33,748 bases of DNA, from the IMG/VR virus record IMGVR_UViG_2718218139_000002, one strand, 5' to 3'. Under the pieces are notes generated by a model. That model had not been told where the DNA came from. It was given only the letters and a program-made list of their open reading frames with translations, and searched no databases. The DNA comes from a virus (lineage: Duplodnaviria > Heunggongvirae > Uroviricota > Caudoviricetes). Shown here piece after piece: positions 292 through 27,926 of the stretch. How positions within the stretch are numbered: the first letter of the stretch is position 1; each line of letters starts with the position of its first letter. Both the position numbers and the translations under genes were made by a program.

Positions 292-402
292 TCGTGCGTA
301 AAAAGTGTTCAAACATATGATTCTTGATTTTGTTTGCCACCATAGTAAGCATTTTTATGTTGCATGTAGAGATGAGAAGGCAGGTATCACTTGATTGATA
401 TA

Positions 403-2868
403 ATGAAGGTTTGGCTTATTTCTCAAAAGTGGTTCTGGAAATTAAGAACAGATCTTGTGAGGGTTAGATTTATTTTAGAACGTGCGTCATACATACATCG
501 TACGTCTGTTTTTAAAGCTAAGTCTAACGCTCATGTTTTTATGTCTTTTGCGTTGGTAGGTTTAAAAAATTTGTTATGGGTCATATTAACGTTATTTGCA
601 CTGGGTTTTGTTGAAGATTATATTCGGAATAATACGATTTTGCTTCATCCTCTTAGCTATGATGAAAAAAAATTTAATATTGATCAACTTAGGTTGTACG
701 CACAGATACTTACCGCTATATTTTCAATATACTTTGCTACAATAGGTATCATTCTAAGTGCAGGATATACCAGACTTCGGCGAGATATTATACAAATGCT
801 TACTACCGAGCAGGTAGGTAATGTGTATTCGCGGACTTTAGTGCTTTCTGCGGTGTTTTGTCTTAGTGCAACTGCTCTCCACTTGTTCGGGGTTGAACCC
901 GGTCTTTTCGTTTATGCAATGGGAACATTGCTGACACTTGTTAGTTCCTTAGCTCTGTTCCCATTAGGTCAAAGATTATTCAATTTTTTTGACCTAAATC
1001 AGTTAGCCCGAAGTGAAATACTCCCACGAATTGCACGACACATCGAAGGTGCGTCTAATCCCAAGAATTCAGTATCTTTAGCTAATCATCACTCTAAAGC
1101 CGCACATTTGGCCTTTGAGCAGTTAAACTACATTGATGATCGCCTGATATGTGAAAAAGTAGGACTCGGAGATAATTTACCTGCTCTCAGTAATGTTTAT
1201 TCGGCATTACTTCTTCATTACCTTAATCAGAAACACAGAATTGATTATCAAAGTTACTGGTTCCCTAGACGAATAAAACATAAGCAATGGTTCTTAGCTG
1301 GCGACAGTGTAACATCCATTGCTTTAAAAACAAGGAGCCAATTAACGGTTGAAGAAGAACCAAATTATCTTTGGTTAGAGAATGAAATTATCAATAGGTT
1401 GGTAGGCCATATTGAACTTGCATTCAAAGCCGGTGATTTCAAGCTCGGGTTGGATCTCATCAGTCTATTCTCATCTCGTATATTAACTTATGCACAACAG
1501 TTTCAGTTCGATATTGGTATACGTGAACTTCGGAAAATGAAGACGATCATTGAAAAAGCCTTTACACCGTCTGATGTCGTTAATTATTTTGAGGAAAAGG
1601 TGATAAAAGTTGGAATTGCGGATGCATGGGCTGCATTAGGCAGCAATCTTTGCCTTGAAATGTTACGCCGCATGATTACTTTTGAGAAAGAATTGGAGCA
1701 GTTCTTTAAAGATGATATCTGGACAGAGACCTCTCTACACACTTTGCCTGCTTTTCTGCAGGTTGAGTTGGCCTTTATCGTAGAACGTATCGAATTCGAA
1801 AAAGAGATTGAAGGACAGAGATTATCCAAACCAAAGTACGTCCAGCAGTTGGCGGTTCAGAAGTTATTACAACAATATTCTAAAATTCTGCCAGAAGTAT
1901 GCGATTTTCACGTAAACATGGTTCCAGATTTCGTTAACTCACTGATAAACATGAAGATGCCGGAAGCCGCAACGCAAGTCGTTCTCGCTAGCCTACATAA
2001 TCATTTGAAGTTTCCCCATTGGTTTAATGAACTTTCTCTGCTCTTGGAGAGATACAGAAAGTACGAGCACTACTCTGAAAAGCTATACGCATTACCAGAA
2101 ATTAATATTGCTGAAATGCTCAAACAGTTTGTCGTTACACAGGATGAAGCTATAGCTATTCTTGGTAGGGAGGAAATTGTGGGACATATCATTGAACAAG
2201 AGCAAGATGATGAACTACCGGATCATTTGGGACAGATATATTTTGAGTTGGCTGAGGAATGTATACATGCGCTTGAACAGAATGATGAAAATAAACTGAG
2301 CAAGGTATTCCCTATGTTCATGGTTCTCTCATTGCTGGCATCAGATACTAAATTTGTAGATCCGAAACTCGATATAAACAACGAGTTTCGACTGCATCTC
2401 CTTTCATCCGCGATCAACGATCTGATGTCAGTTCTAGGTTTTGCTATCCTTTACAGTGCTTATTTCGATAATGCAAAACTATCTAAAACAGTACTTGATA
2501 GGTTTAAGTCTTGGCTCGAGTCTGTTCCCAACAAACAGCAGTATTTGAAGAGAATGATGATTCTTTCAAATCCGCGCAATTTCAGCTTGTGCGCATCACC
2601 GAGAGATATGATTCGTCTTAACTGGAAAATGGAATTTGAGCGCCGCGCAAGACATGATGGCTTTAGCGATCAAATGGGAATGAATCGAGGGAAATCTCAT
2701 ACGAACAAAGTTGTCAGAGAGTTCTTAAACTCCCATTCAGATGCATCGCATCTCTTTTGTGCTCTCGAAATTTTCCCGCAACTCGAGCAAATTGACTTCA
2801 AGATCGATTACCATGTTAGTGAGTTGGCTCGTCGTTTTGGCGTGGAATACGATAAGGATTTTGAATGA
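403..2868 (+). CDS. Large membrane protein, four predicted N-terminal TM helices plus a roughly 630-aa soluble domain; no recognisable family
   Basis: Long ORF 391-2868 (TTG at 391, first ATG at 403; start uncertain). Hydrophobic segments FMSFALVGLKNLLWVILTLFALGFV, LYAQILTAIFSIYFATIGIILSAGY, VLSAVFCLSATALHLFGV, LFVYAMGTLLTLVSSLALFPLG. AT-rich relative to phage genes. Stop overlaps the next start (ATGA). Confidence 0.6.
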   Translation: MKVWLISQKWFWKLRTDLVRVRFILERASYIHRTSVFKAKSNAHVFMSFALVGLKNLLWVILTLFALGFVEDYIRNNTILLHPLSYDEKKFNIDQLRLYAQILTAIFSIYFATIGIILSAGYTRLRRDIIQMLTTEQVGNVYSRTLVLSAVFCLSATALHLFGVEPGLFVYAMGTLLTLVSSLALFPLGQRLFNFFDLNQLARSEILPRIARHIEGASNPKNSVSLANHHSKAAHLAFEQLNYIDDRLICEKVGLGDNLPALSNVYSALLLHYLNQKHRIDYQSYWFPRRIKHKQWFLAGDSVTSIALKTRSQLTVEEEPNYLWLENEIINRLVGHIELAFKAGDFKLGLDLISLFSSRILTYAQQFQFDIGIRELRKMKTIIEKAFTPSDVVNYFEEKVIKVGIADAWAALGSNLCLEMLRRMITFEKELEQFFKDDIWTETSLHTLPAFLQVELAFIVERIEFEKEIEGQRLSKPKYVQQLAVQKLLQQYSKILPEVCDFHVNMVPDFVNSLINMKMPEAATQVVLASLHNHLKFPHWFNELSLLLERYRKYEHYSEKLYALPEINIAEMLKQFVVTQDEAIAILGREEIVGHIIEQEQDDELPDHLGQIYFELAEECIHALEQNDENKLSKVFPMFMVLSLLASDTKFVDPKLDINNEFRLHLLSSAINDLMSVLGFAILYSAYFDNAKLSKTVLDRFKSWLESVPNKQQYLKRMMILSNPRNFSLCASPRDMIRLNWKMEFERRARHDGFSDQMGMNRGKSHTNKVVREFLNSHSDASHLFCALEIFPQLEQIDFKIDYHVSELARRFGVEYDKDFE

Positions 2869-3857
2869 AAATTATCAAGAATATACCCCTTTACGGTTAT
2901 AGCGTCGATCCTGAGCAATTAAGTTTTGTTGATAGACTATTGACCAAGTCTAAGAATGAACGACCAGGTTTCTATCAAAGGATGTTTTATGAGGATTTTG
3001 CTAGAGTTTTTAATTTTGTAAATCACGGTGATACCAATTTGTTTCAAATCGAAACTAACGACGAAGAACTCATACGTAAAATGTTTGGAAATTTACAAGC
3101 TAGATATAGGAAATACTCGGTAGATGAAACAATACGTGAATTGGTGGAGGCAGTAGCGCAATCGTTGATTTGGCAAGGAACGGCATACTATTTTGTTCAA
3201 AACGTTTCTGAGCAAGAAAAAATACATATTACTCCTCTCGTTTCTGATAATATATTTTGTTTTTTTTCAGTGTATTTTCAGTATGTGCCGAAACGGTGTG
3301 AAAGATATTTAGAACGGGATCATGAGATGCTTCCAAGAGAATTAAGAATCTTGGATAAAAACAAACTAATGCGTTTCGAAATTCCTAGGTCCTTAAGGCA
3401 GATGTTGTCTGAACAAAATCGGACTTTAAAGATCATTGACAAGCATCAATTTGGTGTTACTAATTTTTATCCTCAAGCAACATACGAAAATCCTAACCCG
3501 AAAAGTCACTTTGATTTTAGCATTTGGAAAAATACGCAAGAGCAAGCATTATTCCGAGCTACGAGGAAAACCGGGTGGAATGGTAGAAATTATGATTCAT
3601 CAAAATGTTCTGATTTCTTCCATTACTATCGTCTTATTCGATTTAGACGGAATCAACTTATTTTACGTGATTATATATTGTTGCAATTAGGTAAAGAGCT
3701 CACAAGGGTAGGTCACCGATATAATGAGGACTTTAATGTTGTGATTTCACCAACAAGTGTTTTGCCTCAAATCGATAAACTAGATGAGATGGAATCATTA
3801 CTTTCTAGGGAGGAAATAGATTTTACTGAGGTGTCGGATTACTATTACGAACGTTGA
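2865..3857 (+). CDS. 330-aa soluble hypothetical protein, partner of the membrane protein
   Basis: ATG at 2865 overlaps the upstream TGA (2866-2868), indicating translational coupling; AT-rich; no motif recognised. Confidence 0.6.
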   Translation: MKIIKNIPLYGYSVDPEQLSFVDRLLTKSKNERPGFYQRMFYEDFARVFNFVNHGDTNLFQIETNDEELIRKMFGNLQARYRKYSVDETIRELVEAVAQSLIWQGTAYYFVQNVSEQEKIHITPLVSDNIFCFFSVYFQYVPKRCERYLERDHEMLPRELRILDKNKLMRFEIPRSLRQMLSEQNRTLKIIDKHQFGVTNFYPQATYENPNPKSHFDFSIWKNTQEQALFRATRKTGWNGRNYDSSKCSDFFHYYRLIRFRRNQLILRDYILLQLGKELTRVGHRYNEDFNVVISPTSVLPQIDKLDEMESLLSREEIDFTEVSDYYYER

Positions 3858-23517: not shown

Positions 23518-24933
23518 ATGGCTACGTGGCAACAGGGTATTAATTCTGGTGGTTTTCTGGCTGGCATCGGTACGCAAAATGAGAATGCGCCAAAGGCAAG
23601 CGACATTAACGCAACGCTTGGTCTGATCCGCGAAAACAATGAACTGGCTCGCTCAGGTGCAAATAACGTTGGTCTGACCGCGTTACGTGGTCTGGCTGGA
23701 GTTGCTGATATTTACAATCAGGAACAGCAACAGAAAGCGATTAGTGCGTTCAATAAGGTTCATGCTGATGCATGGGCTTCTGGTGATCCATCGGGACTAT
23801 TTAAGTTTGCCCAGGAAAATCCAGCGTTTGTTGCACAGGCACAACAGGCGTTTTCCGGTCTTAATGAGCAGCAACGCAACGATATGGGCGATTTAGCCAT
23901 GAGGGCTAACGTCGCTCTTTCTCAGGGACCGGAAGCCTACAGTAAATTCATTACTGACAACAAGGACAGGTTAAATCGCGTTGGCGCTAATGCTGACTGG
24001 ATGATTCAGACAGGTATCCAGAATCCAGAGCAGCTATCACACATGCTGACTACTATGTCTCTCGGTGCGCTTGGACCAGAAAAGGCGTTTGCTGTTCAGG
24101 ACAAGATGGCTGGTCGTGAGATTGACCGAGGCAGACTGGCAGAGACAATCCGCAGCAATCAGGCTGGAGAAGCACTTCAGGCGAGAGGGCAAAACCTTTC
24201 CTATCAGTCAGCAATGACTGGACACAATATCGCAGCACAACGCTTGGCTCTGGATCAGCAAGAGTTCGGATTTAAGATGCAGCAAGCGCAGGAAAAGGCT
24301 CAGCAGTTGATTAGCGAAGCACCTAAGCTGTCAGTAAACATGGAAAAAGGCATCGAGACGGCTGTAAACAATGCCACAGCATCATCAAACTCAGCCAATT
24401 CCATGAGTGCGCTTGCTCAACAGTTCAGAGCAGAAAAACCAACGACAGGTTTGTTCGGTAACGCACAGAACATGTTCGCAAAACTTACCGGAAGCGATAC
24501 GACATTGCGTGATTTGCGCATTCGCCAAAATGCCCTTGTTAACAGTCAGGTTCTTAAATTCCTACCTCCCGGCCCAGCAACTGATAAAGACGTTGAGATC
24601 GTTCGACAGGGTGCGCCAACTGACATGGATAACCCTGAGACGGTCGCAAGATGGCTTGATGCAATGGCAAACCTTGAGCGACGAAACGCGCAGTTTAATG
24701 AGTTTAAAGCCGAGTGGATGAGCGCGAATGGCAACTCTGGACAATCGCGTAATGGCGGTCAGATATTGGGGTTGGATGTTAAAAAAGGTGAATCATTGGG
24801 GAGTGCCGTTAAGCGGTATATGTCAATGAATACTGACGCAGCGCCAGCACAAGATTCGACACCTTCAGGAAAACCACGTAATCAGGTTGGATCATATACC
24901 TCAAAATCAGGCATTCAATTTACGGTGGAATGA
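23518..24933 (+). CDS. gp20: Ejection protein gp20
   Basis: 471 aa, the P22 gp20 size as recalled, in the conserved position. Confidence 0.75.
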
Positions 24934-26771
24934 TGAAAGTAACTGCAAACGGTAAGACATTTACCTTCCCTGATGGTACGAGCACGGAAGATATTGGAGC
25001 CGCCATTGATGAGTATTTTGCTGGTCAGGTTGTTCAGCAACAAACAGTTAATCAGGCCAATAATGCACCAGTACGTGAAGACCCATCATTGATGCAACAA
25101 GCTGGCGATTGGCTCACTGGTGGTCAAAGTGCAGGGCAAATTGCAGAACAGGCTGGTCGTGGTCTGGTAAACATACCATTTGACGTATTGCAGGGTGGCG
25201 CAAGTCTGATTAATGCAATCAGTCAGGGGCTTGGAGGGCCAAAAGTTTTGGATGATGTTTATCGTCCAGTAGACAGACCGACAGACCCATACGCACAAGC
25301 CGGTGAAACAATTGGCGGGTATTTAGTTCCAGGAGTTGGAACGGCAGGAAGCATGGCTATTGGATCACTGGCAGAGGCCGCAAATCAGAAAGGTGATTTC
25401 GCACAAAATGCAGCTAAAAATGCCGGAGTTAACCTTGCCGCTCAGGGTGTTCTTTCCGCAGCAGCAAAGGGAATAGGGCGTGGAATAACGGCTATAAAAG
25501 GTGATATTGCGCCAGAAGTGGCGAAGAAAATAGCCACATCAGAATCGATGGGCGTGACACCAATGACATCTGATGTTATCCCGCCGAAAAATGCTTTCAC
25601 TCGCGGACTTACTCAGGATGCCGAGGGGGCTTTGCTCGGGACGGGCTCAAAGCGAGCAGAGCAATATGCAACGCGTAGTAAGCTGGTAAGCAATTATTTT
25701 GACCGTTTTGGTGAGTACAACCCTGATGATGTGGTGAAATCTCTGACCACCACGTTAAGGGGGCGGAAGGATGCTGCTGGCGCTGTTATCAATGACGTCA
25801 CCAATAAAATGGGTAATGCCGCAGTTGATACCACAAATACCATGAATGCTCTGAATACAGCGATCGCAAGACAGGAACGACTTGGGACGTCTGCCAATCA
25901 AAGCCTGCTTACATCCTTGCGTAACCTACGTGAAGAATTAGCAAACCCTGCAACTGATTTGGATGTTACGTTTGATCTCTTGCGTCAGCACAGAACAGCA
26001 TTTAGATCTAATGTTCAGGGAGATGCTATGGTCTTCCCCAACCAGGCAAAAGCAGCTACCAATATGGTAGAGAATGCAATGTCAAAAGACCTTCGTAACG
26101 CAGTTGCTAAAAACCTCGGTGCTTCAGACGCAGCAAAATACCTTAAAGCAAATTCCGATTATGCAAACGTTTATAATAAGGTGCTTAATAAAAACATTGC
26201 TAACAAACTCAACAAGGCAAGCAGTGAAGCCAGCCCTGAACTTATAAATACTGTTGTATTAAGCAGAAAACCATCTGACGTGAAACGAATCTGGAGCGCA
26301 CTGGATGATAAAGGGAAAGATGCTATGCGTGCAGCTTACATCAGCAAAATAGCGGAAAAGGCCGGTGACTCTCCAGCCAAGTTCATCACTGAAGTTAATA
26401 AGCTGAAATCTCAGTCAGGCGGTGAAATTTACAACACTATTTTTTCTGGAAAGCACATGAAAGAGCTTGATTCTCTTCATGAAGTTCTACAGCAAACAGC
26501 AAGGTCAGACACCGCAAATGTAGTAACTCAGACGGGGCAATCGCAAGCCAACCGGATAAGGACGATTGGCGCAACTGCGACTCTTGGCGTATCAATGGGG
26601 CTTGAGGCTGGCTTTGGTGCAATGATGCGTTTGTATGAGTCTAAAGCAGCAAGAAACATGCTTCTCCGCCTTGCAAACGTCAAGCCTGGAACTCCGGCAT
26701 ATGAGCGAGCGTTAAATCAGGCTGCTAACGCCGTTCGCCCTCTCCTAACTAACGAAGCTACCAGGCAGTAG
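24930..26771 (+). CDS. gp16: Ejection protein gp16
   Basis: 613 aa, close to the P22 gp16 size as recalled, in the conserved position; start overlaps the gp20 stop. Confidence 0.75.
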
Positions 26772-26790
26772 AAATGAACGCCAAGGAAGG

Positions 26791-27120
26791 CTATTTAATT
26801 CTCTTTTCAATGGCTGCAATTATTGCTTTTCCTGATGTTTCAGGAGATTTTGTAGCCATATAAGACGAAAAAATCATGTCGGTCATTCTTTCATAACTTA
26901 CTATTTCCCACTTAGCCAATGCATGGGACAGTTTGTAGTTGTCATCAGTTAGTGCCCTTATGGAATTTTTTAAGTGTTTATTCTCTTCTGTTAATCGCGC
27001 AATTTTTGTATCAATTTCATGTGAGCGATCTAATTCCTTAACCTGTTTCTTGAGGGCAGCTAACCCTGCATATAGTACGCAACAGGATATCCCAAGAGCG
27101 AGTACGACTATTTCTAACAC
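26791..27120 (-). CDS. Small membrane-anchored coiled-coil protein (sieA-region cargo)
   Basis: GTG start with AAGGAGG 6 nt upstream; N-terminal TM helix LEIVVLALGISCCVLYAGLAAL followed by heptad-rich region. Confidence 0.5.
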   Translation of the reverse strand: MLEIVVLALGISCCVLYAGLAALKKQVKELDRSHEIDTKIARLTEENKHLKNSIRALTDDNYKLSHALAKWEIVSYERMTDMIFSSYMATKSPETSGKAIIAAIEKRIK

Positions 27121-27238
27121 ACCAACCTCCTTAGTTTTTCGCAGGATACCATGAAAAAAGTAAACATCTTTTGCCTACTTCACATTTGAATGGTTTGTCA
27201 TTAGGATGTTTCCGGTTTTTTCAAATATGGAAATTGAT

Positions 27239-27658
27239 ATGAAGAGGATTATCGGCGTTGTTGCTGGCGCTATATTGTTATCTGGGTGCGCAACTATTGT
27301 TGGTGACGAAACACAGCTCGTGCAAGTGAACAGCAATCCTTCCGGTGCGAGCTTTAAAGTAAAAGACGAATCAGGCGTGATTGTTGCGCAAGGCAAGACC
27401 CCGCAAGGAGTAACTCTTGCCAAGTCAGATGGTAGTTATTTTGGCAAAAAGAGCTACCAGATCACTATGGAAAAGGATGGGTACGAACCAGTTACCCTGC
27501 CAATCAAAGCCAATGCTAATGGTTGGTATATTGGTGGAAACCTTGTGTTTGGTGGGTTAATTGGTTGGCTTGCTGTAGATCCTTTTAATGGTGGGATGTA
27601 TACCTTGAAGCCAAAAGAGGCAAACGCATCTCTTATACCATCAACAAAGCAAGACTAA
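27239..27658 (+). CDS. Lipoprotein (signal peptide with lipobox LLSGC), PEGA-like beta domain
   Basis: MKRIIGVVAGAILLSGC lipoprotein signal; remainder is beta-rich with G/W-rich C-terminus; start could also be the ATG at 27227. Confidence 0.65.
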   Translation: MKRIIGVVAGAILLSGCATIVGDETQLVQVNSNPSGASFKVKDESGVIVAQGKTPQGVTLAKSDGSYFGKKSYQITMEKDGYEPVTLPIKANANGWYIGGNLVFGGLIGWLAVDPFNGGMYTLKPKEANASLIPSTKQD

Positions 27659-27665
27659 TAAATAG

Positions 27666-27690
27666 GACCCACCTTCAGGTGGGTTTTTTG
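27666..27690 (+). terminator. Terminator after the lipoprotein gene (overlaps the mnt stop)
   Basis: ACCCACCT-TCAG-GTGGGT followed by TTTTTTG. Confidence 0.6.
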
Positions 27691-27926
27691 TACAAATCCT
27701 TCAGCGTATCAAACACCATCTTCTTAACAAGCTCTGACTGCTCATCAGCGAGTCGTTCTGCATCGTCGCGATATCCAGTCACAGGCGATGGTTTTGATAG
27801 AGCATCTTGGACGATTTGTAACAACTCGGAGTTCATTGATCTCCCATTCGCCTCCGCCCTGAATTTTAATTTCTCCCTTACTTCCATAGGCATACGGAAG
27901 TTAAAGTGCGGATCATCTCTAGCCAT
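27675..27926 (-). CDS. mnt: Mnt repressor (ribbon-helix-helix)
   Basis: Near-identical to P22 Mnt as recalled (MARDDPHFNFRMPMEVREKLKFRAEANGRSMNSELLQIVQDAL...). Confidence 0.9.
   Translation of the reverse strand: MARDDPHFNFRMPMEVREKLKFRAEANGRSMNSELLQIVQDALSKPSPVTGYRDDAERLADEQSELVKKMVFDTLKDLYKKPT

What the first reader, a model, noticed from the sequence alone, without database searches (positions are those of the whole stretch)
26791..27658. Two small envelope proteins at the sieA position: candidate superinfection-exclusion pair
Between gp16 and mnt, where P22 carries superinfection-exclusion functions, lie a minus-strand membrane-anchored coiled-coil protein with a strong ribosome-binding site and a plus-strand lipoprotein with a beta-rich, PEGA-like domain. 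Both are AT-rich, and neither is recognisable as P22 SieA. Prophage lipoproteins often block receptors or DNA entry of incoming phages.
Basis: partly seen in the sequence, partly recalled or inferred. Interest (0 to 1): 0.5.

Follow-up and report, generated by a model that had tools for sequence, protein, structure and literature searches.

The report
Two independent prophage envelope-protein morons
Two small, intact genes next to the DNA-injection genes of a decayed P22-like prophage encode an inner-membrane leucine-zipper protein sitting in the slot of the exclusion gene sieA and a conserved outer-membrane lipoprotein; they are separately swappable add-on genes, plausible but untested blockers of incoming phages, and not a matched pair.

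Summary
Both ORFs are real and intact, and lie between gp16 and mnt of a P22-like (Lederbergvirus) prophage at argW in E. coli.

- **Minus-strand gene (26791-27120, 109 aa):** one N-terminal membrane helix, predicted N-out/C-in, then a GCN4-like leucine zipper and a nearly invariant C-terminal head of about 40 aa. It occupies the sieA slot exactly and shares sieA's upstream cassette (ribosome-binding site plus about 50 bp). In 84 P22-like genomes, 11 unrelated cargo genes follow this cassette, and 10 of them encode envelope proteins.
- **Plus-strand gene (true start 27239, 139 aa):** a PEGA-domain lipoprotein, identical to Gally GALLYPH_14 and about 97% identical to epsilon34 gp15. It has its own promoter-like site and terminator. 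The identical protein is transcribed from the repressed LF82 prophage. It is under strong purifying selection (dN/dS 0.02-0.05). It belongs to a large, mostly chromosomal lipoprotein family and has also been captured in other phage slots, including the HK97 gene-15 exclusion slot.
- **Not a pair:** the 109-aa gene splits 8:8 between the lipoprotein and hkcC, and the lipoprotein has at least six different left-hand partners.

Superinfection exclusion is the leading hypothesis but rests only on position and cell location. The region is the published "ant moron". Interest is modest.

The parts
24930..26771 (+). gp16 ejection (DNA transfer) protein gene; left border of the variable segment (context)
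   Evidence: ORF. Annotated as DNA transfer protein in VE-F5. Pfam Phage_P22_gp16 is found on homologues.
26791..27120 (-). 109-aa gene in the sieA slot. Encodes one N-terminal membrane helix (residues 4-22, predicted N-out/C-in), a leucine zipper (about residues 36-71) and a nearly invariant C-terminal head (residues 67-107).
   Evidence: (PHROG 8100, E 1.4e-69, unknown function). In every context examined it lies convergent with gp16, immediately downstream of it.
27126..27132 (-). Shine-Dalgarno sequence AAGGAGG, 5 nt upstream of the GTG start at 27118-27120
   Evidence: Read directly from the sequence. Invariant in P22, epsilon34, ST160 and the window.
27122..27161 (.). Conserved junction cassette CCAACCTCCTTAGTTTTNNGCAGGATACCATGAAAAAAGT. 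It carries the ribosome-binding site and 5' leader for the sieA-slot gene on the minus strand, and the hkcC start codon on the plus strand.
   Evidence: Alignment. Exact match in 114 IMG/VR contigs. Precedes 11 unrelated cargo genes, including sieA.
27143..27151 (-). Extended -10-like element TGGTATCCT, 21 nt upstream of the GTG; candidate core of the PsieA promoter (inferred)
   Evidence: Read from the sequence inside the conserved block. Leavitt 2024 showed that 85 bp upstream of sieA is enough for expression. Not found by the strict consensus scan.
27151..27189 (+). 12-codon stub of hkcC/orf64 (MKKVNIFCLLHI*), left behind when the lipoprotein cassette replaced hkcC
   Evidence: hkcC starts at the ATGAAAAAAGT of the cassette in 50 of 84 genomes.
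27179..27207 (+). Sigma-70 promoter-like site TTCACA-17-TAGGAT upstream of the lipoprotein gene
   Evidence: 9 of 12 consensus positions. The region is nearly identical in epsilon34.
27239..27658 (+). 139-aa PEGA-domain lipoprotein gene. Signal peptide residues 1-16, lipid-modified Cys17, beta-sandwich 25-93, hydrophobic Gly/Asn-rich helix 95-112, beta-hairpin 121-131.
   Evidence: (PHROG 6823, E 6e-86). Annotated from 27239 in VE-F5. The identical protein is GALLYPH_14 in LF82.
27667..27689 (.). Bidirectional intrinsic terminator (ACCCACC-TTCA-GGTGGGT followed by a T-run) shared by the lipoprotein gene and mnt
   Evidence: Annotated as a Rho-independent terminator in epsilon34.
27675..27926 (-). 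mnt repressor gene; right border of the variable segment (context)

Best explanation
These are two separate add-on genes ("morons") filling the two exchangeable slots of the hypervariable gp16-mnt segment. This segment is the published "ant moron" of P22-like phages. The host element here is an IS-disrupted P22-like prophage at argW.

**Slot 1, minus strand.** This is the sieA slot. A conserved cassette of about 40-55 bp supplies the ribosome-binding site, and probably the promoter, to whatever cargo gene sits there. Here the cargo is a 109-aa inner-membrane protein.
- Its short uncharged N-terminus is predicted to face the periplasm.
- A parallel leucine zipper and a highly conserved C-terminal head are predicted to face the cytoplasm.

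I infer that it substitutes for SieA. It would sit in the inner membrane and interfere with the gp7/gp20/gp16 DNA-delivery conduit of incoming P22-like phages, or with a host factor that conduit needs.

**Slot 2, plus strand.** This slot normally holds hkcC, which has been replaced, leaving a 12-codon stub. The replacement is a self-contained unit with its own promoter, gene and terminator. It encodes a lipoprotein with Ala at position +2, so it should be sorted to the inner leaflet of the outer membrane. A PEGA beta-sandwich would be held flat against the membrane by the lipid anchor and by a conserved hydrophobic Gly/Asn-rich helix.

The gene was captured from a widespread chromosomal lipoprotein family and is expressed from the repressed prophage. 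I infer that it changes the periplasmic face of the outer membrane so that entry of superinfecting phage is impeded. A host-fitness role is a close second.

**Shown:** gene integrity, cell targeting signals, slot identity, the shared cassette, independent assortment, prophage-state transcription of the lipoprotein, and purifying selection.

**Inferred:** membrane topology, outer-membrane location, promoter elements, and any exclusion activity.

**Confidence split:** about 0.9 that these are independent envelope morons at a swap hot spot, about 0.4 that either one excludes phages.
For: **Slot identity and the shared cassette**
- P22 sieA is on the minus strand directly after gene 16.
- The block from the start codon through about 50 bp upstream is nearly identical in P22 (sieA), epsilon34 (gp14), ST160 and the window.
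- The exact 40-nt pattern occurs in 114 viral contigs. In 84 analysed genomes it precedes 11 unrelated cargo genes, 10 of which have a signal peptide or membrane helix.

**The 109-aa family**
- It has only 18 protein clusters. In the four distant-homologue contexts examined it lies convergent with gp16.
- The C-terminal 45 residues are nearly invariant.
- All members have no Lys/Arg before the membrane helix and 2-4 after it.
- The heptad pattern has Asn at core positions, as in GCN4.

**The lipoprotein as an autonomous, expressed, selected gene**
- It has a promoter-like site and a terminator.
- The identical protein in the LF82 prophage Gally is transcribed at log2 fpkm 9.4-11.0 in conditions B1, B6, MB1 and MB6 (MB6 is macrophages at 6 h). 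Typical repressed structural genes of that prophage read about 3-4, and the C2 repressor reads 10.5-12 (PMC9928086 Table S1).
- dN/dS is 0.02-0.05, for example 3 non-synonymous against 28 synonymous differences.

**Repeated capture of the lipoprotein next to DNA-delivery genes**
- Between tail chaperone T and the tape-measure gene in HK97-like E. coli prophages. This is the slot of the proven exclusion gene HK97 gp15.
- Between the lambda I-like and J-like genes in Pseudescherichia.
- Next to gp16 in the window.

**Precedents**
- SieA blocks injection at the inner membrane, and escape mutations map to gp16 and gp20 (PMC10883804).
- HK97 gp15 derives from the chromosomal YebO family (PMC3594210).
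Against: - No exclusion phenotype exists for either gene. The argument rests on position, cell location and analogy.
- The lipoprotein family is mostly chromosomal and non-phage. Of 80 species-representative loci, 74 lack phage neighbours, and synteny is stable within genera. Identity of 50-60% across Proteobacteria points to a general envelope role.
- The LF82 expression pattern fits host adaptation as well as exclusion. Expression is low in overnight LB and high in the B1/B6 and macrophage samples.
- The 109-aa gene shows relaxed constraint (dN/dS 0.37-0.85). It appears frameshifted in two phage records.
- If its conserved head is cytoplasmic, it cannot contact the periplasmic conduit directly.
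- PADLOC found no meaningful defence-family match for either protein. The only hit was a weak coiled-coil match of the 109-aa protein to LmuB (E 0.0014).
- Promoter elements for the minus-strand gene are inferred, not detected by the consensus scan.
Confidence: 0.45

Rival explanations
1. The lipoprotein is a host-fitness or virulence conversion factor, in the manner of lambda Bor or Lom. It would strengthen or remodel the outer membrane, for example in serum, in macrophages or under envelope stress, and have no anti-phage role.
For: - In LF82, transcription rises about 30-100-fold from overnight LB to the B1/B6 and macrophage samples.
- The family is a large, conserved, mostly chromosomal lipoprotein family.
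- Purifying selection is very strong, which suggests a conserved cellular partner.
- One relative is fused to an OmpA-like beta-barrel.
Against: - In phages it repeatedly lands in slots adjacent to DNA-delivery genes, including the HK97 gp15 exclusion slot.
- It has no similarity to Bor/Iss or Lom.
- The rise in expression may only reflect growing cells against stationary cells.
- No phenotype has been reported for it. The LF82 study did not score it as a moron.
Confidence: 0.3
2. The two genes form an obligate two-component exclusion system. The inner-membrane protein and the outer-membrane lipoprotein would work together across the periplasm.
For: - They are adjacent and divergently transcribed from one 118-bp intergenic region.
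- One is predicted in the inner membrane and the other in the outer membrane.
- The exact pair recurs in 9 E. coli genomes and in several viral contigs.
Against: - They assort independently. The 109-aa gene splits 8:8 between the lipoprotein and hkcC.
- The lipoprotein has at least six left-hand partners.
- The 109-aa gene occurs without the lipoprotein in ST160, SE1 and E. coli LCP17S3_I1.
- The lipoprotein occurs alone in tail operons of long-tailed prophages and in chromosomes.
- The coiled coil is predicted to be cytoplasmic.
Confidence: 0.05
3. The 109-aa protein acts from the cytoplasmic face of the inner membrane in some way other than blocking injection. Examples are an abortive-infection sensor or toxin, or a factor used in the phage's own lytic cycle.
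For: - The predicted N-out/C-in topology puts the conserved head in the cytoplasm.
- sieA itself is upregulated on induction (PMC10883804).
- The membrane anchor evolves fast while the head is conserved.
Against: - The linkage to the 3' end of gp16 is strict.
- It uses the sieA expression cassette.
- It has no match to known abortive-infection or defence families beyond a chance-level coiled-coil hit.
- SieA's most conserved motif is also predicted to be cytoplasmic, so a cytoplasmic head does not argue against an injection block.
Confidence: 0.15
4. The pair is a spanin-like lysis module. The membrane-anchored coiled coil would be the inner-membrane spanin and the lipoprotein the outer-membrane spanin.
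For: - Weak PHROG matches of the 109-aa protein to Rz-like spanins (E 0.015-0.2).
- The superficial architecture fits: a membrane helix plus coiled coil alongside a lipoprotein.
Against: - The prophage has its own lysis cassette with an Rz remnant at 15459-15905.
- The genes are divergent, lie outside the lysis cassette, and assort independently.
- The predicted topology is the opposite of an inner-membrane spanin.
- The lipoprotein is a folded 123-aa PEGA domain, not a short proline-rich outer-membrane spanin.
- The lipoprotein is expressed in the lysogen.
Confidence: 0.02

Closest known systems
P22 SieA (inner-membrane superinfection-exclusion protein, types A-C; Leavitt et al. 2024, PMC10883804)
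   Same: The 109-aa gene has the same genomic slot and orientation, directly after and convergent with gene 16. It has the same upstream cassette with the ribosome-binding site. It is also an inner-membrane protein and, like sieA, is found only in P22-like prophages.
   Different: There is no sequence similarity. It has one membrane helix where SieA has several predicted transmembrane helices, and 109 aa against 164 or more. It lacks the FxRYPxEAxxFNK motif. It has a leucine zipper, which SieA lacks. Its function is untested.
epsilon34 gp14 / HK620 HkcB (unknown function)
   Same: Same slot and cassette. Similar size (107 aa) and the same architecture: an N-terminal membrane helix with no preceding positive charge, followed by a coiled coil.
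   Different: Identity is only 33% over 67 residues, confined to the membrane helix and coiled coil. A profile search with the 109-aa family did not recover it. It lacks the conserved C-terminal head.
epsilon34 gp15 / Gally GALLYPH_14 ("conserved hypothetical" proteins)
   Same: These are the same lipoprotein gene. epsilon34 is 96.5% identical in DNA over the matched stretch. The protein is identical in LF82 prophage Gally and E. coli VE-F5 (WP_000821222.1).
   Different: Nothing of substance. The published records give no function. The epsilon34 genome paper noted only that gene 15 matches bacterial genes of unknown function.
HK97 gp15 (exclusion moron between the tail chaperone and tape-measure genes; Cumby et al. 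2012, summarised in PMC3594210)
   Same: Homologues of the lipoprotein (68% identity) occupy this very slot in HK97-like E. coli prophages. Both are small envelope proteins expressed from prophages and derived from chromosomal host families.
   Different: They are unrelated in sequence. gp15 is an inner-membrane YebO-like protein, whereas this is a PEGA lipoprotein predicted to sit in the outer membrane.
Cor (phi80/N15/HK022) and T5 Llp: outer-membrane lipoproteins that inactivate the FhuA receptor
   Same: All are small phage-encoded lipoproteins with no Asp at +2, encoded near tail or receptor-binding genes. They are plausible working models for how the lipoprotein could act.
   Different: It is not a member of either family. 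The NCBIfam Cor model scores 11.7 bits against a cut-off of 31, and the match covers only the signal peptide. The size and fold differ, and no receptor target is known.
Pfam PEGA domain (PF08308) / transthyretin-like beta-sandwich
   Different: This protein scores just below the Pfam cut-off. The conserved C-terminal module (hydrophobic GGNxxFGGLIGW helix plus VDPxxGxMY hairpin) is not covered by any Pfam model.

Membership tests
SieA (P22-type superinfection exclusion protein) | [quoted passage not shown] | tested here: met
   The upstream cassette is shared with sieA.
SieA (P22-type superinfection exclusion protein) | Inner-membrane protein with several predicted transmembrane helices, 160-200 aa, with detectable similarity to type A, B or C | tested here: not met
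   The protein has one membrane helix and 109 aa. BLASTP against P22 SieA gives E 0.31. No SieA was recovered in the homologue searches.
SieA (P22-type superinfection exclusion protein) | Conserved cytoplasmic motif FxRYPxEAxxFNK | tested here: not met
   The motif is defined in PMC10883804. It is absent from the 109-aa sequence and from its family alignment.
SieA (P22-type superinfection exclusion protein) | Blocks DNA injection by P22-like phages | not testable with these tools
   Needs plating, potassium-efflux and escape-mutant experiments.
Phage moron (Juhala/Hendrix definition, as restated in PMC3594210) | Present or absent, or exchanged, among otherwise syntenic relatives | tested here: met
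   There are 11 cargo types in slot 1 and two alternatives in slot 2. The region is the published "ant moron".
Phage moron (Juhala/Hendrix definition, as restated in PMC3594210) | Own promoter and terminator | tested here: met
   For the lipoprotein, a promoter-like site at 27179-27207 and a terminator at 27667-27689. For the 109-aa gene, only a conserved upstream block with an extended -10-like element, and no terminator was found. These are consensus matches, not proof of function.
Phage moron (Juhala/Hendrix definition, as restated in PMC3594210) | Base composition differs from neighbouring genes | tested here: inconclusive
   The 109-aa gene is 37.0% GC against 47.7% for gp20+gp16. The lipoprotein gene is 44.8% GC, close to the window mean of 45.1%.
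Phage moron (Juhala/Hendrix definition, as restated in PMC3594210) | Transcribed from the repressed prophage | tested here: met
   Met for the lipoprotein only. The identical protein GALLYPH_14 in LF82 reads log2 fpkm 9.4-11 in four conditions, against about 3-4 for typical repressed structural genes (PMC9928086 Table S1). No data exist for the 109-aa gene.
Bacterial lipoprotein (signal peptidase II substrate), sorted to the outer membrane | Positively charged N-terminus, hydrophobic core, lipobox [LVI][ASTVI][GAS]C, and no Asp at +2 | tested here: met
   The sequence is MKRIIGVVAGAILLSG-C17-ATIVGD. C17 is invariant, and G16, A18 and T19 are invariant or nearly so across 78 relatives. Outer-membrane sorting is inferred from the E. 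coli +2 rule, not shown.
PEGA domain (Pfam PF08308) | Score at or above the Pfam gathering threshold | tested here: inconclusive
   This protein scores 17.6 bits against a cut-off of 20.8. However, 31 of 96 family members match, best E-value 5e-9.
PEGA domain (Pfam PF08308) | Transthyretin-like beta-sandwich fold | tested here: met
Cor phage-exclusion lipoprotein (NCBIfam NF047972 / PHROG 1119) | Match to the family model beyond the signal peptide, above the cut-off | tested here: not met
   NCBIfam gives 11.7 bits against a cut-off of 31, covering residues 1-30 only. The PHROG 1119 match covers residues 1-20 only.
Two-component spanin (Rz/Rz1) | Co-transcribed genes in the lysis cassette; N-in/C-out inner-membrane spanin; short proline-rich outer-membrane lipoprotein | tested here: not met
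   The genes are divergent and lie outside the lysis cassette. The predicted topology is the opposite. The lipoprotein is a folded PEGA domain. PHROG spanin matches are weak, E 0.015 or worse.
Known anti-phage defence systems (PADLOC-DB v2) | Significant match to any defence-system protein model | tested here: not met
   The lipoprotein has no match. The 109-aa protein has only a coiled-coil-type match to LmuB at E 0.0014.

The most novel reading that the evidence does not exclude
The 40-55-bp junction between the sieA slot and hkcC may be a fixed expression and recombination platform. P22-like phages would use it to shuffle a library of at least 11 unrelated small envelope proteins. The 109-aa leucine-zipper protein would then be a new, mechanistically distinct class of inner-membrane blocker of podovirus DNA delivery, acting from the cytoplasmic face. 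The PEGA lipoprotein would be a new outer-membrane exclusion or entry-control factor. It has been captured in at least four distinct phage contexts in short-tailed and long-tailed phages, three of them adjacent to DNA-conduit genes (gp16, the tape-measure protein, gpJ). Its large chromosomal family would then point to a conserved envelope component that phages must pass.
Probability: 0.25. Interest if true: 0.6.

Novelty: new member of a known kind. Interest (0 to 1): 0.35.

Why it matters
P22 SieA is the only characterised block to DNA injection by short-tailed phages. Only about a third of P22-like phages carry it (22 of 66, PMC10883804).

This analysis shows that the same slot and the same expression cassette carry at least ten other small cargo proteins, nine of them envelope-targeted, including the one in this window. 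That gives a concrete, ready-made panel of candidate exclusion genes. They can be tested with the genetics already established for SieA.

The lipoprotein is common: the exact protein is on 1000 or more contigs. It is strongly conserved and highly transcribed from a prophage of the Crohn's-associated strain LF82 in four of the five RNA-seq conditions, including inside macrophages. Yet it has no known function. Finding its role would annotate a family of several thousand uncharacterised lipoproteins.

If neither gene excludes phages, they remain ordinary uncharacterised prophage cargo.

Tried and rejected
- **Spanin pair.** Rejected on gene position, predicted topology, fold and independent assortment.
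- **Cor-like or Bor-like lipoprotein.** Only the signal peptide matches Cor, and there is no Bor/Iss match.
- **Known defence systems (PADLOC).** Nothing meaningful.
- **Mimic of YajC.** YajC is a host inner-membrane protein essential for P22 injection, and has similar size and topology. There is no similarity (E 1.2).
- **Homology between the 109-aa family and hkcB / epsilon34 gp14.** The pairwise match is borderline, and the profile search did not recover it. Treated as the same architecture, not as shown homology.
- **Solved-structure sequence searches.** These returned only generic Ig-like and CnaB folds for the lipoprotein and GCN4 zippers for the 109-aa protein.
- **Fold searches.** A viral fold search gave no annotated relatives. 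The afdb50 library was unavailable. I did not run a fold search on the 109-aa model because it is a single long helix.
- **Conserved chromosomal neighbours of the lipoprotein family as a clue to function.** Synteny holds only within genera, and no universal partner exists.
- **Literature searches.** Searches by accession or locus tag, and for ST160 phage-type conversion, found nothing that bears on function.
- **Minus-strand promoter.** The strict consensus scan found no promoter in the cassette. The extended -10 assignment is my own reading.
Full report
**1. What is there**

The window is a P22-like (Lederbergvirus) prophage. It is integrated at tRNA-Arg(CCT) (32666-32740), next to an integrase (31347-32540) and yfdC. 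E. coli VE-F5 has the same arrangement, and its DNA is 100% identical over 26780-27700.

The finding lies between the last ejection-protein gene, gp16 (24930-26771), and the immunity-I genes mnt, arc and ant (27675 onward), which precede the tailspike gene. This segment is the published "ant moron" of P22-like phages. Ten versions of it were already noted among sixteen genomes in 2008 (PMC2629481).

**2. The minus-strand gene (26791-27120, 109 aa)**

- **Translation signals.** The gene starts with GTG. A perfect AAGGAGG lies 5 nt upstream.
- **Structure.** AlphaFold gives one helix from residue 2 to 90 and a short helix at 96-108, mean pLDDT 84.6. Residues 4-22 are a membrane helix. Residues 36-71 follow a strict a/d heptad pattern, I-I-L-N-L-I-L-N-L-L-W. 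This explains the weak matches to GCN4 and bZIP zippers. By analogy with GCN4, the Asn residues at core positions suggest a parallel dimer; this is established knowledge, not tested here.
- **Topology.** Every family member has no Lys or Arg before the membrane helix and 2-4 just after it. By the positive-inside rule the short N-terminus faces the periplasm, and the zipper and head face the cytoplasm. This is an inference.
- **Family.** It is tiny: 14 clusters with a single query and 18 with a profile, out of 5.8 billion sequences. All are annotated as hypothetical proteins. It corresponds to PHROG 8100, function unknown.
- **Context.** In every context examined, the gene lies immediately downstream of gp16 and convergent with it in a P22-like element. 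That includes a Klebsiella homologue and the most distant relative at 35% identity.
- **Conservation.** The last 45 or so residues (KWEIxSYExMTDMIFSSYMATKSPETSG..IIAAIExR) are nearly invariant, while the membrane helix varies freely. Overall dN/dS against the window copy is 0.37-0.85.
- **Annotation gaps.** The gene is present but unannotated in the reference genomes of Salmonella phages ST160 and SE1. It looks frameshifted in two other records.

**3. It sits in the sieA slot, behind sieA's own cassette**

P22 sieA has the same position and strand. An alignment of the junction shows near-identity from the start codon through about 50 bp upstream. This holds in P22 (sieA), epsilon34 (gp14, hkcB-like), ST160 and the window.

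I searched the 40-nt core CCAACCTCCTTAGTTTTNNGCAGGATACCATGAAAAAAGT in IMG/VR and found 114 exact matches. In the 84 genomes analysed, the gene that follows the cassette on the minus strand falls into 11 unrelated types:

| Cargo type | Genomes |
|---|---|
| 129-aa secreted protein | 21 |
| this 109-aa protein | 16 |
| 107-aa hkcB type | 14 |
| SieA | 10 |
| 62-aa membrane protein | 6 |
| 75-aa membrane protein | 5 |
| 106-aa membrane-anchored protein | 5 |
| 149-aa membrane-anchored protein | 3 |
| 99-aa secreted protein | 2 |
| 68-aa secreted protein | 1 |
| 140-aa soluble protein | 1 |

Ten of the eleven carry a signal peptide or a membrane helix.

The right end of the cassette, ATGAAAAAAGT, is the start of hkcC/orf64 on the plus strand. 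The sieA-slot gene and hkcC are therefore separated by only about 30 bp. Leavitt et al. showed that 85 bp upstream of sieA is enough for exclusion-competent expression. Within the conserved part I read an extended -10-like TGGTATCCT, 21 nt upstream of the GTG. This is my inference; the strict consensus scan did not report it.

**4. The plus-strand gene (27239-27658, 139 aa)**

The mechanical ORF starts at 27206, but all annotations and the signal peptide point to ATG 27239.

- **Lipoprotein signals.** The protein begins MKRIIGVVAGAILLSG-C17-ATIVGD. This is a classical lipobox with Ala at +2. Under the E. coli sorting rule it should go to the outer membrane; this is inferred.
- **Structure.** AlphaFold (pLDDT 78.9) gives a confident beta-sandwich at residues 25-93. 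A low-confidence hydrophobic helix follows at 95-112 (WYIGGNLVFGGLIGWLAV, with invariant N101 and G109). A confident hairpin at 121-131 packs back onto the sandwich. The short linker after Cys17 and the hydrophobic helix suggest a domain held flat on the membrane, possibly as an oligomer; this is inferred.
- **Autonomous unit.** It has a promoter-like site at 27179-27207 and a bidirectional terminator at 27667-27689, which is annotated in epsilon34.
- **Replacement of hkcC.** Only a 12-codon hkcC stub remains (27151-27189, MKKVNIFCLLHI*). The lipoprotein unit therefore replaced hkcC.

**5. Who else has the lipoprotein**

- **Identity.** It is epsilon34 gp15 (about 97% protein identity) and is identical to Gally GALLYPH_14 in E. 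coli LF82.
- **Abundance.** The exact protein occurs on at least 1000 contigs.
- **Other phage slots.** Homologues of 68-78% identity are add-on genes in long-tailed prophages:
  - between tail chaperone T and the tape-measure gene in HK97-like E. coli prophages, and immediately upstream of the tape-measure gene in Proteus prophages;
  - between the lambda I-like and J-like genes in Pseudescherichia.

  The T/tape-measure slot is that of HK97 gene 15. This was the first moron described and is a proven exclusion gene that itself derives from the chromosomal YebO family (PMC3594210).
- **Chromosomal majority.** The family is very large: 5596 clusters at 50% identity with E of 1e-3 or better.
  - Of 80 species-representative loci across Proteobacteria, only 6 lie in tail clusters of lambda-like prophages. 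All 6 are among the closest relatives.
  - The other 74 have at most two matches to my phage reference set. That set covers only lambda-like and P22-like phages, which is a caveat.
  - Synteny is stable within genera, for example next to murJ in six Photorhabdus species. No neighbour is universal.
  - In Enterobacter the gene sits among ordinary chromosomal genes.

**6. Expression and selection**

The LF82 study reanalysed RNA-seq for all prophage genes (PMC9928086 Table S1). Only BLB (stationary LB) and MB6 (macrophages at 6 h) are defined in the text I read. I take MB1 to be the earlier macrophage sample and B1/B6 to be bacteria without macrophages.

| Gene | Overnight LB (BLB) | B1/B6 | MB1 | MB6 (macrophages, 6 h) |
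|---|---|---|---|---|
| GALLYPH_14 (the lipoprotein) | 6.2 / 4.8 | 9.8-10.5 | 11.0 | 9.4-9.5 |
| GALLYPH_13 (minus-slot gene, a different 171-aa lipoprotein) | 6.3 / 6.0 | 7.9-8.2 | 10.3 | 8.5-8.7 |
| C2 repressor | 8.9-9.9 | 10.5-11.0 | about 12.0 | about 11.2 |

Values are log2 fpkm. Typical repressed structural genes of the prophage read about 3-4. The authors did not call either gene a moron, because their 5-fold threshold was applied to the LB samples only.

Among P22-like copies, the lipoprotein gene has dN/dS of 0.02-0.05, for example 3 non-synonymous against 28 synonymous differences. It is clearly a functional, expressed gene.

**7. Not a pair**

- Slot 2 holds the lipoprotein in 34 of the 84 cassette genomes and hkcC in 50. 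The 109-aa gene splits 8:8 between them.
- Among 75 P22-like viral contigs with the lipoprotein, the left neighbour is the 129-aa protein (20), the Gally-type 161-aa lipoprotein (17), the hkcB type (12), the 109-aa protein (11), the 62-aa protein (4) or the 75-aa protein (2).
- Only 9 of 5426 complete E. coli genomes carry both genes together, while 169 hold at least part of the region, mostly the lipoprotein.
- SieA was never found with the lipoprotein (0 of 10). These SieA phages are close Salmonella relatives, so I draw no conclusion from this.

**8. Interpretation**

The robust conclusion is that these are two independently exchangeable envelope-protein morons at a recombination hot spot.

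Function is inferred. For the 109-aa protein, three points make a SieA-like interference with DNA delivery at the inner membrane the most economical reading:
- its strict linkage to gp16;
- the shared sieA cassette;
- its inner-membrane location.

SieA's own most conserved motif is also predicted to be cytoplasmic. A cytoplasmic head is therefore no objection to this reading.

For the lipoprotein, three points favour an entry-related role:
- repeated capture next to DNA-conduit genes;
- occupation of a proven exclusion slot;
- expression in the lysogen.

Its wide chromosomal distribution, extreme conservation and induction in macrophage-related conditions equally fit a host-fitness role. I put exclusion at about 0.4 for each gene and the Bor-like alternative for the lipoprotein at about 0.3.

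**9. Novelty and score**

The locus, its variability and both genes as "conserved hypotheticals" are already in the literature and in PHROGs. As far as I could find, four points are new:
- the shared cassette serving at least 11 cargo types;
- the leucine-zipper, N-out/C-in architecture and strict gp16 linkage of the 109-aa family;
- the PEGA assignment, multi-slot capture and chromosomal origin of the lipoprotein;
- the evidence that the two genes assort independently.

This is a new member of a known kind, prophage morons and candidate exclusion genes. Interest is modest (0.35).

Noticed in passing
window 13908-15905: The prophage cannot lyse its host or package DNA. The endolysin ORF is cut short at 14213 (101 aa) by an IS3-family insertion, with transposase ORFs at 14275-14577 and 14613-15431. 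After the IS only an Rz fragment remains, inside the ORF at 15459-15905. The scaffold gene follows directly at 15996. No terminase or portal ORFs were seen where P22-like phages have them.
   Followed up: partly
window 16908-19413: The coat protein gene is split by a second insertion. Coat residues 1-140 are encoded at 16908-17348 and residues 142-423 at 18520-19413. An rve-type transposase gene lies between them on the minus strand (17352-18191). The two morons and the immunity-I genes remain intact in this decaying prophage.
   Followed up: partly
L109-L188 (IMG/VR contigs with the cassette): Besides SieA and the two membrane-anchored coiled-coil types, the sieA slot carries eight further uncharacterised cargo genes. 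The most common is a 129-aa secreted protein, in 21 of 84 genomes (MKKVLAAMFLFISFGATA|ECWVV...). All are untested candidates for exclusion or lysogenic conversion.
   Followed up: partly
L004, L114, L125 and other sieA-bearing loci: sieA was never found together with the lipoprotein (0 of 10, always with hkcC), although the lipoprotein is in 34 of the 84 cassette genomes. This could reflect redundancy, or only the close relatedness of the Salmonella sieA phages.
   Followed up: no
L002 (SE1) about 2386-2712 minus strand; L005 (ST160) about 2593-2919 minus strand: The homologue of the 109-aa gene (about 83% protein identity) is intact but unannotated in the GenBank and RefSeq records of Salmonella phages SE1 and ST160. 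In SW-70 and ST-29 it aligns in 2-3 pieces, which suggests frameshifts.
   Followed up: partly
LF82 prophage Gally (L027; PMC9928086 Table S1): The LF82 study concluded that Gally carries no morons. Its own table shows GALLYPH_13 and GALLYPH_14 among the most transcribed Gally genes after the C2 repressor in the B1, B6, MB1 and MB6 conditions. The 5-fold moron threshold was applied only to overnight LB cultures.
   Followed up: yes
window 391-3857 and 8317-10089: Three large ORFs have no Pfam or PADLOC match: 825 aa and 330 aa with overlapping ends on the plus strand, and 590 aa on the minus strand. They may be accessory or defence cargo of the prophage's early region.
   Followed up: partly
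window 26828-26847: A terminator-like hairpin with a T-run lies on the plus strand inside the coding region of the 109-aa gene, 57 nt after the gp16 stop codon. It might attenuate late transcription entering the moron region.
   Followed up: no
P0156 (distant relative of the lipoprotein): One family member carries the lipoprotein module fused to a C-terminal OmpA-like beta-barrel (Pfam OmpA_membrane, E 2.3e-15). This fits an outer-membrane location for the family.
   Followed up: no
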